A program made the position numbers. Of a stretch of DNA of 64,000 nucleotides, positions 1 to 6,000 are shown piece by piece (position 1 is the first letter of the stretch; the number at the start of each line of letters is the position of its first letter). The stretch lies in NCBI RefSeq assembly GCF_054482595.1, contig NZ_CM137008.1, one strand, 5' to 3'.

Positions 1-3000
1 GAGTGGGTACTGGTAAGGATTTAATCCTCCTTCCAGCCCAATCGGGTCCTGGGTGATATACCGTCCCTGCAACGGGTCATAGTACCGGTGACGGTTGTAA
101 TACAGCCCCGACTCCTCATCATACTGCTGTCCCGGCAGACGGTACGGCTGTTGCAGGTGCTGCGCGCTGGTTTCGCCCAGCAGGTTTCCCCACTCGTCAT
201 ACTCCCCCTGCCACGCCGTTTCCCCTTCCGGGCTGATGAGCGCCTGCGGCAGTCCCCGGTGGTCACAGTGGTAAAGATGAAGTTTCCTCTCCGGGATGTA
301 TTCCGCCTCCAGTTGCGCCGCCATCTGTTCCGCCGTCAGCCCGCACTGCGCAAGCCATGCCTCACTCTCCGCACTCACCGCACCCGCGCGCAGTTCCCGC
401 TCCAGCCTTCCCAGCATCACCGCCAGCTCCGCCGGTAGCGTCACCCCCGTGTCCTCCTGCAACACCTCCGCCAGGCTCCGGTGCCGCGCCTTCGCCTGTT
501 CGCCATTCTCTGTTTCGATTCTGATGAGTGGTGTGAAGCTCCCCGGCTGGTATACCGTCTGGATACGCGTGGTGCCGGTCTGTACCGTCGTCAGCCTGTC
601 ACCGTCCCACCCGTACCAGGTTACCTCCGGTTTACGCGACAGCGACATCCACCCCGTCAGGTCACGCTCCCGCCGCCACACCCGTTTTCCCGTCCGGCGG
701 CCCAGCGGGTCATAGAGGTAGCGGCTCTCCACCTGCGGCTCACCGTGCTGTATCCGCGTGTAGAACACCAGACGGTGCTGGCTGTCGTAGTGGTAGTGGT
801 GGGTCCGCTCGTCGTGCATCCGTATCACCCCTTCCGGGATGCGGTCCGTCTTCTCCGCCAGCCTGCCGTATTCATCGTGGCGGTAGACATAGTGCGCATC
901 TTCCGCGATGCGGTTATCCGGCCACGCCGTGAAGGTACTGTCCGGGTGCAGTTCCGGGTCCGGCAGCCGGTTTCCTGCCGGGTCCGTCGCATACGGGATA
1001 TCGATATCCAGGTTCGCTGCCGTGGTGTGGACGCCCGTCAGCCTTCCCGTGTCACTGTAACGGTACTCCCGGCTCTCCTGCGGGCCGCTGATGCGGATTA
1101 GCTGTCCGTTGTCGTTCCAGTCGTAGTCACGGTCAAGCTGCGGGAGGTTCAGGTGCTGGCTCTGGAGCTGGCCTGTGAGGGTGTATGTGCTGGTCAGTTC
1201 ATATGCTGCATTACTGCCTGCCATGCTGCCGAAGCTGCGCACCGTCTCACGGTGCAGCCGGTCCCGCGTGTACTCGACCAGCGGTGTTCCGCCCAGCTTC
1301 ATCCCCGCAAGATAACCGCTGCCATACGTCAGCCACTCCACCGGCGGCAGACCGTCCGGCTCCTGACGGGTCGCCAGCCCCTGTTCGCTGTACGCATGCC
1401 CCGTCTCATGCTCCCACAGCATCTCCCCCGTCTCCGGGTTCTCCACCGTCTGCCGTTCATCCGTCAGGCGGCCTTTATCGTCATAGCCGTAGTGGACCGA
1501 CACGCGGTGGCCTTCACTGGTATGGCTGAGGGTGGTTAACCACCCGTGCTCATCATACTGCCACTGCTCTGCCGGGTCGCCGTTCACCGTCCGGTGCGTG
1601 ATGCGGTCCGACGCATCGTAGTGCCAGAGGGTGATAAGCCCCTCGTCTTCACTCTGCGTGAGTTTTCCGGTCAGGTCATAGTGGTAACGTTGCGTCCGGC
1701 CGTCAAAACCGCGCTGTTCAGTCAGCCTGTCCACCGGGTCATACCGGAACGTGGACTGGCTGCCGTTCTCGTTGGTCAGCACGGTGATGCGCCCGGCAGA
1801 GTTATACTCCATGCTGCGCGTCAGCCCGCCTTCCGTCACACTCACCGGACGCCCGCGTTTATCATATTCGATGGTGCTGCGTTTACCGTCCGGTGATATC
1901 GTTGCTGTCAGGTCGCCTGCGGCGCTGTACTCATAACGGATTTCACGCCCCTGCGCATCCTTCTGACTGACCAGTTGCCCACGCGGGTTATAACTGCTGT
2001 AAGTGCTGATGCCTTCCTCCCGGTGAACGGCGATTTGTTGACCGTACCGGTCATACTCATACCGCGTCGTGTACCCCGAGCAGTCCGTAAAGGCCAGCAG
2101 TTGACCGTAACGGCTCCATGCCATCTGTTTTGTACTGCCCGTCGCATCCTCTATCCCTGTCGGCAGCTCACTCGCCGGGTCATCATAGCTGTAACTCGTC
2201 GTCTCACCGCTGCGTGAGGTCTCCGCCGCCAGCCTTCCCTTCTCATCATACTCCCGGCTGCTGCGAAGCCCGTCCGGGTACGTCACCGACGTCACCTGCC
2301 GCTGGCTGTTATAGCCATACCGTACCGTCCTGCCGTCCGGCCCCGTCACCGCCGTCACCGCACCCGACGCCATATGCAGGCTGTACTCCGTCCGCCGCCC
2401 CGCCGCATCCGTCTGTGCCTTCAGCCTCCCCGCCTCATCATACTCGCTGCGGGTGATGCTCCCGTCCGCATGCTCCTTCTTCACCACCCGCTTCAGGCCG
2501 CCTTCGCCCTCCGTGTACAGCACCTCCCGCCGGTTCAGGCTGTCCGTGATGGTCACACGGTCCTGCCCGTACTCAAAGCGGTAGTCCAGCCCCTCCGGGT
2601 TGACCTGCTCCGTCACCCGGCCGGTATCATCATACCGGTAGCGGCTCTCCGGCCTACCCGCATAATGGTGCGCCACCATCCGCCCGGCGTGCTGCACATC
2701 ATAAGTAAACCCGCGCACCTGCATCCCGCTGCGGTCATACACCGCCAGCAGTTCTCCGCTGGCCGTGTACGTGTAGCGCGCCAGCGGCGCAGTCGGCTGT
2801 TCATCCGGGTATGCCGGGTCGTGTGTCAGCCACACCGCCTCCAGCCGGATACCGTTATCGGCACCGTATTCTGTACCGGCGGGCAGCGTGTCGGGGAAAG
2901 CTGAAGAAGAGGAAACAGAACGGGGACCGGCAGGGGAAGATAAAGACGTGGCACGCTGTTTACGGAAGGCTTCCGCCCGCTGCGCCTGTGTGGTCAGCAC

Positions 3001-6000
3001 CAGGTGAAAACGGCGGCCCGCGCCGTCCGTCACCCCGGTGATTTCGCCAGCCAGTTCGCCTGCGGCCTCGTGGTGGAAAGTCAGTGAACGCCCGAAGCCG
3101 TCCACCACGCCCGTCAGCACCCGGTATGCGGGCGGCGGAGGCGGCAGCACTTCGTCCGCCTCCGGCACCCGCTCCGGCCAGTTGAGTATCCACCACGGCC
3201 CCTGAAGGCTGTTTGTCGCCAGGTACACATGCGGACTCAGGCGAACATCTTCCGGCAGCACCTGCCAGAGCGCGCTTAGCGGCTGCGAACTGTGCTGCTC
3301 CGCCACCCCGCCCCGCGCCAGCCAGAACGACTCGCTGCGGCTGTAGCTTATCTCGCCGGGAAACAGCGGCTCAAAGTGAATGCTCCTGCCGCCGTTGTCG
3401 TTGAGTATCAGTTCCCGCTCATGAACCTGTAAGCGGATATCGAAAGGGGCTTTCCAGCCGGGGCCGAACACCCCCACCGGCGCGGGCGTCCTGGTCCGGT
3501 AGCTGCTGTAGGCGCGGGAAAGAATAAACGGCAGCGGGCCGGACAGTGCAAGGTCCGTCTCGCCCGGCAGCACCTTTGCTCCCAGCAGCGGGTTCACCGG
3601 GTTGCCCTTCTGCTCCTCTATCGGGCTGTTGGGACATACCGAACAGGCCACTCCCGTCGGCGCACCTATCAGCACCCCTGCTGAACCCTGCACAATATCC
3701 AGTCCCTTGCGGGTCATGTCACCCTGCCGCGCCGCCGGTTTTCCGCCCATGAATCAATTCCTTCTGCTTTTAATATGGTTTATCTGGTCACTGCACCAGT
3801 TCCGTTTTAATTTTTTGCACCTGACTCAAAATTGCCGCATATCCGGCATTCCGGGGGGTAAATCTTTCGGCACAGGCACATCCGGTACAGGTTGTGTGGC
3901 ACCACAGTTCCAGTTAATCACTGGCGCATCACCGTTCACATCCGACTCCCCTTCCAGATGAATGTGCGTACCATTGAGAAATATGCTTCCGTCCTTCGTC
4001 AGCACCAGCCTTGCCTTACCACAGCAGAGTTCAAGATGCTCACCGGCAGAATAAACTGCTGTTTGTCCGGTGTTTTCCTTCATTGTCTTGCCCACCGAGA
4101 AGGTGACGTTATTCCCTACATTGACGCTGTAGCCCATTCCCACCATCAGTGATTTATGCAGCCCTACCTGTGAGGACTGCAACAACGCCACCGAGGTATT
4201 CATAATGCCGCCTACCGTCGTCTGATACGCCACACCCACCGTCAGCGCACGAATGATCCCCACCTTTTCAACCTGGTTTGATCCCACTTTGATAATCTGG
4301 TTACTGCCTACCGTTTCCACCTGGTTGACACCAACCGTCTGTATCTGATTAACGCCAATGTTCTGGATCTGGTTATTGGTAACGGTGATCGCCTGGTTGT
4401 TACCTATTTTTTCGGCATGGTTGTTTATCACATCCGTGGTGCGGTTATTCAGCACCTCGGTGTTCATGTTCTTCTGCGCGTGGATGTAGACCTGTTCTTT
4501 CCCTGTCGCATCGTCAAACTTCAGTTCATTAAACCCGCTGCCCTTATAGGTTTTCGAACGAATGGTCATCTGCGTCTTTGTTCCCGGCAGGCTGCCGGGT
4601 GTGCGGTTTTCCTGGTGGTAGGTGCGCCCCATAATGATCGGCTGGTCCGGATCGCCGTTGAGGAAGTCCACAATCACCTCCTGACCCACGCGCGGTATCG
4701 CAAGGTTACCGAATCCGGTGCCTGCCCACGCCTGTGCCACACGGATCCAGCATGAACTGTCCTGGTTTGACGGGTTATAGCGGTCCCAGTTAAATTTCAC
4801 CCGCACGCGGCCATGTTCATCACAGAAGATTTCCTCGCCTGCCGGTCCCGTCACGACGGCGCTCTGCGGGCCGTCCACCAGCGGTTTCAGCAACGGCTGT
4901 GGTCGCCATGTCCGGTCTGCCGGGATTACCGCAAAATGGTTATCCAGCGTGGTGCCTGAACCCCTGCGTCCCGGTACCGCCTGCGGCTGTTCGCCGTGAA
5001 GATCGCTCGCCACCACCTGCCATTCCCGGTTCAGGTTCGCCTGCGGATGCCCCGTCAGCACAATTCGCCGTCCCGGCCATATCTCCGGCGAACGGCTTGT
5101 TCCGCGCGCCACTTCTGCGTTGTTGCGCCAGCCATCCATCTGCCAGCGGGCAAAGTTCTGCCCGTGGGCACCCTTGAAACGTCCGGGGTAGTCATACACT
5201 TCATACTGTGTGCGCTGGTAATCCTGGTACTGGCCTTCCTGATCAAAACGCCCTGCCCAGCCGGGTCGTTTAAAGGTGTAGTCTTTGGTCACCACGGAAG
5301 AAGGGCGGATTTGTGCGCTGTAGCGAAACTGGCTGATGCAGAGGGTGCTTACCTCGGTACGGGTGTTCGGATTCCAGGGGATCTCAAAGGACTCCGGCAG
5401 ATAACGCACGGTATCGCACAGGACCAGGCTCTGGTCGGTACTTTTTTGCGCGTGCTCCTCATAAAAGAAGATGCCTTCCTCCGCCGCCATCCGGCACAGG
5501 AAATCGTAATCAGTCTCACCGTACTGGACACAAAACTCACGGGAAGGATGTGGCTCGCTGAACAGCGGGCTCCACTCGGTCACCCCGTTTTCCTGCAATA
5601 TCGTGCCGAGGATGCTTTCGATGTCCTCATTCTGGAAGATACGGAAGTTCTGGCGCAGCCCTGTGCGCCACAGCGGCGGGCATACCTTCATGCTGTACAG
5701 CTTCTGGTTTTTGTCGTTCTCCCCCAGTTCAAACCAGGTCACCACACCTTTCACCCGGCGCTGTACGTCATCGCCCTGCCATATCGTCAGGTAGGCCATT
5801 TTGTCGAGGATCTGCTGGAATTCAAGGGAGAGAAACTGCTGGCTGACCAGAGAGAGATCGAGGGAAAAAAGCGAAGAGAGTGACTGGTTCAGATGAAAGG
5901 AGACCACCGCAAAAGCATCCGGTGGCAGGCCGTCCACTTCCAGCGTGAAACGTAATCCGGTTGACATAGCAACCTCCGGGGTTAAGGAAAAACAGACAGT

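What the first reader, a model, noticed from the sequence alone, without database searches (positions are those of the whole stretch)
1..5967. vgrG followed directly by a PAAR-like Rhs toxin gene with no adaptor gene; toxin and immunity lie just outside the window
The rhs start is only 75 nt after the vgrG stop, with no DUF4123/DUF2169/EagR-type chaperone ORF between them. The Rhs N-terminus is the RhsA-type PAAR-like domain, so the spike tip and toxin are one polypeptide. The window begins about 20 residues before the end of the conserved Rhs core ([14 protein letters not shown]), so the variable C-terminal toxin domain and the expected downstream immunity gene are just off the window.
Basis: partly seen in the sequence, partly recalled or inferred. 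Interest (0 to 1): 0.5.

Follow-up and report, generated by a model that had tools for sequence, protein, structure and literature searches.

The report
Ordinary E. coli VgrG–Rhs toxin module
This is the standard hcp–vgrG–rhs effector arm of the E. coli type VI secretion island next to tRNA-Asp, present in about half of complete E. coli genomes and already described in O157:H7; only its rare, uncharacterised toxin tip, encoded just off the window, is new.

Summary
vgrG (3826..5967, minus strand, 713 aa) is followed after exactly 75 nt by an rhs ORF that starts at 3750 and stays open to base 1 (1250 codons). No ORF lies between them.

The window is E. coli chromosome. All 13 complete genomes that are at least 99.7% identical over window 1-6000 continue leftward the same way:
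- The Rhs core ends 11 residues beyond the window, at DPLGL, aa 1261.
- A 209-aa low-GC C-terminal domain follows.
- A 336-aa exported Sel1-repeat protein overlaps the rhs stop and is the likely immunity gene.
- An ISAs1 remnant and yafV come next. There are no orphan cassettes.

The "PAAR-like" N-terminus is real but minimal. Residues 2-29 are homologous to one of the three repeats of a PAAR domain and score below Pfam's cut-off. The conserved PVNPLLG that follows aligns with the N-terminal cleavage site of P. aeruginosa Tse5, the closest solved relative.

The C-terminal domain has no known family and occurs in 32 of 5426 E. coli genomes. I infer that it is a membrane-targeting toxin.

The layout itself is already published for EHEC, with the same 75-nt gap in Sakai. 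In this window clpV/tssH carries a nonsense codon, so delivery is probably dead. Interest is low.

The parts
1..3750 (-). rhs, first 1250 of 1470 codons (T6SS-2-linked 'RHS element core protein'). The remaining 220 codons lie left of the window.
   Evidence: Open frame. RHS_repeat x13, DUF6531 and RHS domains. NF041261 RHS_core 2594 bits. Closest solved structure is Tse5, 1.1e-123.
3664..3747 (-). Rhs aa 2-29: a single PAAR repeat ([28 protein letters not shown]), the presumed VgrG-binding element.
   Evidence: Pfam PAAR_motif 14.9-18 bits, below the 27-bit cut-off. A family profile hits the last repeat of SalCis10 (2.3e-5), VCA0105 4jiv (4.8e-4) and c1882 4jiw (0.035). An artificial 3x concatenation scores 68.6 bits.
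3598..3663 (-). Rhs aa 30-51: invariant [11 protein letters not shown], a variable linker, then the start of the invariant PVNPLLG. Predicted anchor segment and N-terminal self-cleavage site (N50|P51).
   Evidence: Invariant columns in 18 enterobacterial N-termini. Tse5 chain B starts at PVNPMLG, aligned to aa 51. Tse5 cleaves at K47|P48 and its residues 30-47 are anchored in the plug (PMC10684867). Cleavage here is inferred.
3373..3606 (-). DUF6531, the N-terminal plug of the Rhs cage (aa 49-126).
   Evidence: Pfam 3.8e-18. Same domain as the plug in the Tse5 structure (PMC10684867).
1..201 (-). Start of the RHS-associated core / C-terminal plug (aa 1184-1250), including the first DPxGL (DPIGL, nt 34-48). 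The second DPxGL and the cleavage site lie 11 codons off the window.
   Evidence: TIGR03696 at aa 1184-1261. Motif positions 1235 and 1257.
3751..3825 (-). 75-nt vgrG-rhs spacer with Shine-Dalgarno AAGGAA (3758-3763) and an in-frame TGA (3754-3756). No ORF and no strong hairpin.
   Evidence: Sequence. Only a 5-bp weak hairpin at the vgrG stop. Identical 75-nt spacing in O157:H7 Sakai.
3826..5967 (-). vgrG (tssI), 713 aa, with a beta-helical C-terminal extension and a Pro-rich tail. No effector domain and no PAAR repeat.
   Evidence: Differs from XH990 only by V697A.
6137..6168 (-). Intrinsic-terminator-like hairpin (14-bp stem) immediately after hcp, separating hcp from vgrG-rhs.
   Evidence: The same 14-pair hairpin and regulatory region is described for EHEC hcp3-vgrG3 (PMC13141884).
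6177..6695 (-). hcp, first gene of the hcp-vgrG-rhs arm.
   Evidence: T6SS_HCP 5.2e-31.
16932..19670 (+). tssH/clpV with an in-frame TAG at 17748-17750 (codon 273 of about 912). The sheath-recycling ATPase is truncated in its first AAA+ domain.
   Evidence: Flagged 'internal stop' in XH990 and Santai. Glu (GAG) in EC1515, which carries the same toxin cassette.

Best explanation
This is the effector arm (hcp - terminator - vgrG - rhs - immunity) of the E. coli T6SS-2 island inserted between yafV and tRNA-Asp (aspV).

Shown:
- The gene order, the 75-nt gap and the absence of any adaptor gene.
- An Rhs of the canonical enterobacterial core family.
- An N-terminus made of one PAAR repeat (aa 2-29), an invariant segment (aa 30-40) and a conserved PVNPLLG.
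- A compositional break: core 63% GC, C-terminal domain 41%, downstream gene 37%.
- A 209-aa C-terminal domain of no known family, followed by an overlapping gene for a Sel1-repeat protein with a strongly hydrophobic N-terminus.

Inferred by analogy with P. aeruginosa VgrG1c-Tse5:
- The Rhs needs no Eag, DUF4123 or DUF2169 chaperone because it has no N-terminal transmembrane segments.
- Its short PAAR-like N-terminus docks directly on the blunt end of the cognate VgrG encoded immediately upstream.
- The protein cuts itself at N50|P51 and after L1261. The fragments stay together as a cage enclosing the toxin.
- The complex is fired by the sheath.

The toxin most likely inserts into or perturbs the inner membrane from the periplasmic side. 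The periplasmic Sel1-repeat protein would protect sister cells.

In this particular lineage clpV/tssH has a nonsense codon at position 273. The machine is therefore probably non-functional or crippled, and the module is either silent cargo or retained for its immunity gene.
For: Layout:
-.
- At least 80% of the vgrG-rhs query is covered in 2807 of 5426 complete E. coli genomes.
- The O157:H7 Sakai locus is syntenic with the same 75-nt gap and a Sel1-type downstream gene. It is described as hcp-vgrG-'PAAR' rhs-SLR immunity in PMC7216683 and PMC13141884.
- The review PMC6730261 (reporting Ma et al. 2017 and Journet and Cascales 2016) distinguishes T6SS2-Rhs from EagR-chaperoned Rhs.

N-terminus:
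- Profile against PDB and Pfam scores.
- No hydrophobic segment in aa 1-330; the maximum KD is 1.28.
- The Tse5 shell matches at 1.1e-123, and its mature chain starts at the residue aligned to P51.
- PMC10684867 states that the 5-kDa Tse5-NT holds only a PAAR-like domain that is essential for secretion.

Toxin:
- No Pfam, NCBIfam or PDB match.
- The most hydrophobic 19-mer of the whole 1470-aa protein lies in the C-terminal domain.
- Conserved positions in the toxin part are almost all Gly/Ala, with no conserved catalytic-type residues.
- Divergent relatives are followed by integral-membrane proteins: a 192-aa protein with two hydrophobic segments in L006 and a hydrophobic ORF of about 80 aa in L008.

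Immunity:
- It overlaps the rhs stop by 17 nt and has 7 Sel1 repeats (1.5e-54). Its N-terminal KD peak is 2.54.
- It co-occurs with the C-terminal domain in all 32 genomes that carry either.

clpV stop.
Against: - The left flank is inferred from near-identical genomes, not read from the source.
- One PAAR repeat is only a third of a cone. No experiment shows that this N-terminus alone binds this VgrG.
- The sequence of Tse5-NT itself was not detectably similar to this N-terminus; no PDB hit appeared even at E up to 10. The analogy therefore rests on position, not sequence.
- The C-terminal-domain model is low-confidence (pLDDT 51.6), and its hydrophobicity is borderline for a transmembrane helix (KD 1.67).
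- Its immunity protein is a soluble repeat protein rather than the small membrane protein seen for Tse5 and for the relatives.
- The EHEC orthologous system has so far resisted activation, and no secretion or killing was seen (PMC13141884).
- I did not look outside the 64-kb window and 12 kb of flank for adaptor or PAAR genes.
Confidence: 0.7

Rival explanations
1. The single PAAR repeat is not enough. A free-standing PAAR protein or a chaperone encoded elsewhere in the chromosome (for example at another vgrG island) caps VgrG or loads the Rhs, so the absence of an adaptor is only apparent.
For: The N-terminus fails the Pfam PAAR threshold and covers one of three repeats. E. coli genomes carry several vgrG/rhs places, median 4 per genome. 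EagR-linked vgrG islands exist in E. coli (PMC7216683, PMC6730261).
Against: No such gene lies in the island or its flanks. There is no transmembrane segment for an Eag chaperone to shield, and the prePAAR His position holds Lys. Tse5, with the same architecture, is reported to depend on its VgrG and its PAAR-like N-terminus only (PMC10684867). The vgrG-75 nt-rhs pairing is conserved in thousands of genomes.
Confidence: 0.2
2. The C-terminal domain is a periplasm-acting enzyme (for example cell-wall- or lipid-degrading), or a cytoplasmic P-loop enzyme or lipase, rather than a membrane-inserting toxin.
For: Sel1-repeat periplasmic proteins are known immunity proteins for T6SS phospholipases (own knowledge: the Tli5b proteins of P. 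aeruginosa PldB). The domain contains GGSWGAGKT, which fits both Walker A (GxxxxGKT) and GxSxG. There are weak adenylate-kinase matches at E about 0.5.
Against: Those motifs are not conserved in relatives (GFLAPGRT, GILTEGRG, GAFGAGKG, GALAPGRG). The kinase matches are not significant. No family hit appears for any of the 13 members. Conserved columns are Gly/Ala rather than catalytic residues. Relatives are paired with membrane proteins.
Confidence: 0.25
3. The module is a decaying relic with no current function in this lineage.
For: There is a clpV nonsense codon. The sister genome Santai has a nonsense codon in the C-terminal domain, and strain 2824 has IS1A inserted in the cassette. An ISAs1 remnant lies next to it.
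Against: vgrG, the 1470-codon rhs and the immunity gene are all intact in XH990 and most sisters. The same cassette sits next to an intact clpV in EC1515. Immunity alone can be selected. This reading is compatible with the main explanation rather than opposed to it.
Confidence: 0.4

Closest known systems
EHEC O157:H7 T6SS-2 island hcp3-vgrG3-'paar' (rhs, Z0268/ECs_0237)-paarI (Z0269/ECs_0238)
   Same: Same chromosomal site (aspV...yafV). Same gene order, same vgrG length, same 75-nt vgrG-rhs gap and same hcp terminator hairpin. The Rhs core family is the same and a Sel1-type gene lies downstream (PMC7216683, PMC13141884).
   Different: The C-terminal toxin is different; there is no DNA similarity and the sequence is unrelated. 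The Sel1 protein is shorter (181 aa against 336 aa) and only weakly similar. Sakai also has full ISAs1 copies and an orphan rhs fragment, whereas here there is only an ISAs1 remnant. clpV is intact in Sakai and has a nonsense codon here.
P. aeruginosa VgrG1c (VgrG4)-Tse5-Tsi5
   Same: vgrG is directly followed by rhs with no adaptor. The N-terminal fragment of about 5 kDa carries only a cryptic PAAR-like element. A DUF6531 plug is present. PVNP(M/L)LG sits at the N-terminal cleavage site, and DPxGL aspartyl-protease motifs are present. The shells match at 1.1e-123 (PMC10684867, PMC9637101, PMC7376260).
   Different: There is no detectable sequence similarity in the N-terminal fragment or the C-terminal toxin. 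Tse5-NT lacks the PAAR signature, whereas this one has a literal PAAR. Tsi5 is a small two-helix membrane protein, whereas the immunity candidate here is an exported Sel1-repeat protein.
Canonical PAAR proteins (V. cholerae VCA0105, E. coli c1882; PF05488)
   Same: Residues 2-29 align with their third repeat, including GKPAARxGD and the I-x-x-G-S-x-x-V-x-I-G strand.
   Different: There is one repeat instead of three. The score is below the domain threshold, and the repeat is fused to an Rhs cage.
Eag-chaperoned prePAAR Rhs effectors (E. cloacae or P. protegens RhsA, Salmonella Rhs, Photorhabdus Tre23)
   Same: Rhs cage, T6SS delivery and linkage to vgrG.
   Different: Those effectors have a prePAAR motif, one or two transmembrane regions, a full PAAR domain and an adjacent DUF1795 gene. 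None of these is present here.

Membership tests
VgrG/TssI spike | gp27-like hub, OB-fold and gp5 C-terminal beta-helix domains | tested here: met
   Phage_GPD 1.8e-74, Phage_base_V 3.7e-15, Gp5_trimer_C 4.6e-30; TIGR03361 628 bits.
Rhs/YD-repeat polymorphic toxin (NCBIfam RHS_core) | YD-repeat shell with an N-terminal plug | tested here: met
   13 RHS_repeat stretches; DUF6531 at aa 49-126; NF041261 2594 bits over aa 1-1261.
Rhs/YD-repeat polymorphic toxin (NCBIfam RHS_core) | Core ends with the DPxGL-(x17-18)-DPxGL aspartyl-protease motif, followed by a variable low-GC C-terminal toxin and an immunity gene | tested here: met
   The first motif is in the window (aa 1235). The second motif (aa 1257), the 209-aa C-terminal domain (41% GC against 63%) and the downstream gene were seen only in near-identical genomes, 13 of 13. 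They cannot be read from the window itself.
PAAR domain (PF05488) | Full domain of three PAAR repeats scoring above the Pfam gathering cut-off (27 bits) | tested here: not met
   14.9 bits (148-aa query) and 18 bits (50-aa query). Only aa 2-29 align, to profile positions 21-51 of 70. An in-frame TGA two codons upstream excludes a longer N-terminus.
PAAR domain (PF05488) | Homology of the segment to a PAAR repeat | tested here: met
   A profile of 18 N-termini against PDB gives PAAR proteins as the top five hits (2.3e-5, 4.8e-4, 0.035, 0.055, 0.29), always their last repeat. A 3x concatenation scores 68.6 bits.
prePAAR / Eag (DUF1795)-dependent effectors | AARxxDxxxH motif, N-terminal transmembrane region(s) and an adjacent DUF1795 gene | tested here: not met
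   The sequence is [10 protein letters not shown], with Lys at the His position. Maximum hydropathy in aa 1-330 is 1.28. No DUF1795 gene lies in the island.
Adaptor-dependent cargo effectors (DUF4123 / DUF2169 Tap/Tec) | Adaptor gene between or next to vgrG and the effector | tested here: not met
   The 75-nt gap holds no ORF. No such gene is annotated or detected in the island.
Tse5-type Rhs pore-forming effector | Short PAAR-like N-terminal fragment cleaved before PVNPxLG, and a homologous shell | tested here: met
   Sequence-level only: shell 1.1e-123, and chain B of 8cp6 starts at the residue aligned to P51. Cleavage itself is not testable here.
Tse5-type Rhs pore-forming effector | C-terminal domain homologous to Tse5-CT, or shown to form pores | tested here: not met
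   No PDB or Pfam similarity for the C-terminal domain. Pore formation is not testable with these tools. Hydrophobic Gly-rich character only.
Sel1-like-repeat periplasmic immunity protein | Sel1 repeats plus an export signal, encoded directly downstream of the toxin | tested here: met
   7 Sel1 stretches (1.5e-54). N-terminal KD peak of 2.54. Overlaps the rhs stop by 17 nt. Co-occurs in 32 of 32 genomes. Signal peptide versus anchor was not resolved, and neutralisation is not testable.

The most novel reading that the evidence does not exclude
The E. coli-type Rhs N-terminus carries only one of the three repeats that build a PAAR cone, and no free PAAR gene lies in the island. On that basis, three Rhs N-termini (one per VgrG protomer) might assemble a homotrimeric PAAR-like tip. 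Each spike would then carry up to three Rhs cages instead of one. A second, more modest reading is that the 209-aa C-terminal domain founds an undescribed family of membrane-depolarising T6SS toxins neutralised by a periplasmic Sel1-repeat protein.
Probability: 0.1. Interest if true: 0.6.

Novelty: new member of a known kind. Interest (0 to 1): 0.2.

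Why it matters
The layout does not matter much. It is the common, published T6SS-2 vgrG-rhs arrangement of E. coli.

Three smaller points could be useful:
1. The toxin tip is a rare family with no annotation: 32 of 5426 complete E. coli genomes, and 13 representatives among 1.84 billion proteins. It may add to the few known membrane-targeting Rhs toxins.
2. The PAAR-like label used for E. coli Rhs proteins hides the fact that only one repeat is present. This leaves the stoichiometry and geometry of VgrG-Rhs docking open.
3. The nonsense codon in clpV is a reminder that an intact effector gene does not imply an active weapon.

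Tried and rejected
- P-loop kinase reading of the C-terminal domain. GGSWGAGKT fits Walker A, and adenylate and cytidylate kinases were the top PDB sequence hits. Their E-values were 0.5-0.9, and the Lys/Thr are replaced in relatives. Rejected.
- GxSxG lipase reading (GGSWG). The Ser is not conserved. Rejected.
- AlphaFold2 of the C-terminal domain with a 13-sequence alignment. Mean pLDDT was 51.6 and the model was all-helical. Foldseek against PDB gave nothing below E = 1.2 and TM-scores of 0.25 or less. The top rows were generic helical membrane transporters. No fold assignment is possible.
- Pfam scan of all 13 family members. Only scattered single weak hits appeared.
- Homologue search with the C-terminal domain in the 90%-clustered database. 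Only 5 hits came back, because full-length Rhs proteins are hidden under representatives with other tips. The exhaustive search of 50% representatives gave 13.
- Homologue search with the N-terminal 148 aa. It returned only close enterobacterial relatives, none with a precomputed PAAR domain. It was therefore no use for bridging to full PAAR domains. The profile-against-PDB route was used instead.
- AlphaFold2 of an artificial 3x concatenation of aa 2-29, to see whether it folds as a PAAR cone. pLDDT was 38.9, so the result is uninformative.
- PADLOC scan of the immunity candidate and neighbouring unknown genes. It gave only a weak repeat-driven PtuA match.
- Distant blastn for diverged copies of the cassette in E. 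coli. None was found beyond the 32 near-identical ones.
- Search for orphan rhs tips or small hydrophobic ORFs between the Sel1 gene and the ISAs1 remnant. None was found.

Full report
**What is in the window**

On the minus strand, an ORF of 713 codons (3826..5967) carries the three VgrG domains: Phage_GPD, Phage_base_V and Gp5_trimer_C. It matches TIGR03361 at 628 bits. Its TGA stop is followed by 75 nt and then an ATG at 3750. That ATG opens a frame running without a stop to base 1, a total of 1250 codons.

The spacer contains AAGGAA 7 nt before the ATG. It also has an in-frame TGA two codons upstream. The Rhs N-terminus is therefore exactly MGGKPAAR, and nothing else can be encoded between the two genes.

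The long ORF has 13 RHS-repeat stretches, DUF6531 at aa 49-126 and the RHS-associated core. It matches the NCBIfam equivalog "RHS element core protein" end to end at 2594 bits. An hcp gene lies upstream at 6177..6695, and a divergent tssB-to-tssM cluster follows.

**Where it comes from and what lies to the left**

The window is E. coli chromosome.

| Query | Result in 5426 complete genomes |
|---|---|
| Window 1-6000, at least 80% covered | 2807 genomes |
| Window 1-6000, at least 99.7% identical | 13 genomes |
| Toxin-tip plus Sel1-gene cassette | 32 genomes, one copy each, at least 99.6% identical |

Strain XH990 differs from the window at 1 of the first 18,000 bases and at 6 of the remaining 47,661. 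All 13 near-identical genomes carry the same left flank.

In XH990 the Rhs is 1470 aa and is laid out as follows:
- The core ends at DPLGL (L1261), 11 residues beyond the window edge.
- A 209-aa C-terminal domain follows.
- A 336-aa gene starts 17 nt before the rhs stop.
- A 375-nt ISAs1 transposase remnant and then yafV come next.
- No orphan rhs tip lies between them.

GC content falls from 63% in the core to 41% in the tip and 37% in the downstream gene. This is the classic Rhs composition break.

The evidence is indirect but strong. The frame is not always intact in the lineage. Strain Santai has a nonsense codon at position 1426, and strain 2824 has an IS1A in the cassette.

**The "PAAR-like" N-terminus**

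Pfam PAAR_motif matches only aa 2-29, at 14.9-18 bits against a cut-off of 27. None of 120 listed relatives has a precomputed PAAR domain.

I built a profile from 18 enterobacterial Rhs N-termini and searched it against all PDB sequences. The top five hits were all PAAR proteins or PAAR-bearing effectors:

| PDB hit | E-value |
|---|---|
| SalCis10 | 2.3e-5 |
| V. cholerae VCA0105 | 4.8e-4 |
| E. coli c1882 | 0.035 |
| Tas1 | 0.055 |
| Tre23 | 0.29 |

In each case the alignment is to the last of the protein's PAAR repeats.

An artificial head-to-tail triple of aa 2-29 scores 68.6 bits on the Pfam model. The segment is thus a genuine PAAR repeat, but only one of the three that form a cone.

Residues 30-40 ([11 protein letters not shown]) and 51-60 ([10 protein letters not shown], with positions 55 and 56 showing occasional substitutions) are conserved across the family. 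The linker between them varies.

**Closest solved relative and the likely mechanism**

The best PDB match is P. aeruginosa Tse5, at 1.1e-123. The deposited shell chain begins at PVNPMLG, which aligns with aa 51 here. The Tse5 papers report the following (PMC10684867, PMC9637101, PMC7376260):
- It self-cleaves at K47|P48 and after the second DPxGL.
- Its 5-kDa N-terminal fragment holds only a cryptic PAAR-like element that is essential for secretion, and residues 30-47 of that fragment are anchored in the DUF6531 plug.
- It depends on the VgrG encoded directly upstream.
- Its C-terminal fragment is a pore-forming toxin.

The present Rhs has no hydrophobic segment in its first 330 residues. The prePAAR His position holds Lys. 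No DUF1795, DUF4123 or DUF2169 gene lies in the island.

The most economical reading is direct VgrG-Rhs docking through the N-terminal repeat, with no adaptor because there is no transmembrane region to chaperone. This step is inferred, not shown. The N-terminal fragment of Tse5 itself showed no detectable sequence similarity to this one.

**The toxin and its immunity protein**

The 209-aa domain has no Pfam, NCBIfam or PDB sequence match. It is rare: an exhaustive search of 1.84 billion representatives found 13 proteins.

The family shares an N-terminal subdomain (YNTMQGANVG...NLSDEE...ALDDFS.MRG) followed by Gly/Ala-rich hydrophobic helices. The most hydrophobic 19-mer of the whole 1470-aa protein lies here, with a KD of 1.67. 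The conserved columns of the toxin part are almost all glycine.

A Walker-A and GxSxG look-alike (GGSWGAGKT) is not conserved in relatives, so I set it aside. AlphaFold2 gave an all-helical but low-confidence model (pLDDT 51.6). Foldseek found nothing significant.

The downstream protein has seven Sel1 repeats (1.5e-54) behind a strongly hydrophobic N-terminus with a KD of 2.54. Its repeats should therefore face the periplasm.

Two divergent relatives of the toxin are followed by integral-membrane proteins instead:

| Relative | Identity to the toxin | Downstream gene product |
|---|---|---|
| P0004 (L008) | 47% | Unannotated hydrophobic ORF of about 80 aa |
| P0133 (L006) | 33% | 192-aa protein with two hydrophobic segments |

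In all three cases the candidate immunity protein is an envelope protein. Together with the absence of catalytic-type conservation, this makes an inner-membrane-targeting, probably depolarising, toxin the best guess. I put it at roughly even odds. A periplasmic enzyme is the main rival.

**Comparison with what is known**

O157:H7 Sakai has the same site and the same order: hcp, vgrG, a 75-nt gap, rhs (ECs_0237) and a Sel1-type gene (ECs_0238). These are followed by ISAs1 copies and an orphan rhs fragment. The EHEC locus has been described as hcp-vgrG-"PAAR" rhs-SLR immunity (PMC7216683). It has also been dissected experimentally, including the 14-pair terminator hairpin after hcp, which is also present here at 6137..6168 (PMC13141884). 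A review (PMC6730261) already separates "T6SS2-Rhs" from EagR-chaperoned Rhs proteins.

What differs here is the toxin tip, which is unrelated to the EHEC one, and the longer Sel1 protein.

**State of the machine in this window**

tssH/clpV (16932..19670) has an in-frame TAG at codon 273. The same position is GAG in EC1515, which carries the same toxin cassette beside an intact clpV. The "frameshifted" VasL gene is flagged in both lineages, so it is not diagnostic. In this lineage the effector is probably not delivered.

**Verdict**

Novelty is limited to a new, uncharacterised toxin and immunity pair on a well-known scaffold. Interest is 0.2.

The most novel reading still open is that three single-repeat N-termini build a trimeric tip, giving three cages per spike. 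I give this about 0.1.

Noticed in passing
window 16932..19670 (+); stop at 17748-17750: tssH/clpV carries an in-frame TAG at codon 273 (GAG/Glu in strain EC1515). The T6SS of this lineage is probably inactive although its effector gene is intact.
   Followed up: yes
window 6137..6168 (-): A 14-bp-stem GC-rich hairpin followed by a T run lies directly after the hcp stop, in the 209-nt hcp-vgrG spacer. It matches the hcp3 terminator/regulatory region reported for EHEC (PMC13141884).
   Followed up: partly
window 7927..8151 (+): A 74-aa ORF between tssB and tssC, annotated hypothetical, has a weak match to the N-terminus of the sheath protein family VipB (E 0.0026). It may be a remnant of a duplicated tssC 5' end or a small accessory gene.
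   Followed up: no
window 26757..29884: A second hcp (26757..27236) is followed by a truncated 73-aa ORF, a 198-aa unknown, a weak LprI/DUF1311-like protein (28156..28605), a 118-aa unknown and a divergent yafT-like gene, just before tRNA-Asp (30212..30288). It could be an Hcp-linked effector and immunity set. No family assignment was found.
   Followed up: partly
window 25381..26791 (+): The VasL-domain gene is flagged as frameshifted near its 3' end, where it overlaps the second hcp. The same flag appears in strain EC1515, so it is a feature of this island type or an annotation artefact, not a lineage-specific lesion.
   Followed up: partly
L002 position 11475; strain 2824 (hit H31): Sister genomes show decay of the toxin cassette. 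Santai has a nonsense codon at Rhs position 1426, removing the last 45 residues. Strain 2824 has an IS1A inserted in the cassette.
   Followed up: partly
window 42105..43418: Five of the seven mismatches between the 64-kb window and strain XH990 cluster in and just next to the 16S rRNA gene of the rrn operon (window 38567..43667). This suggests rrn copy heterogeneity or gene conversion rather than ordinary divergence.
   Followed up: no
window 3878 (vgrG codon 697): The only difference from XH990 and Santai in the first 6 kb is a Val/Ala change at VgrG residue 697, in the Pro-rich C-terminal tail.
   Followed up: partly
L001 9666..10040 (2-2.3 kb left of the window): Only a 375-nt ISAs1 transposase remnant sits between the immunity gene and yafV. 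O157:H7 Sakai has two ISAs1-family copies (one annotated partial) flanking an orphan rhs fragment at the same place (L011 32535..37388). This suggests the orphan array has been deleted here.
   Followed up: partly
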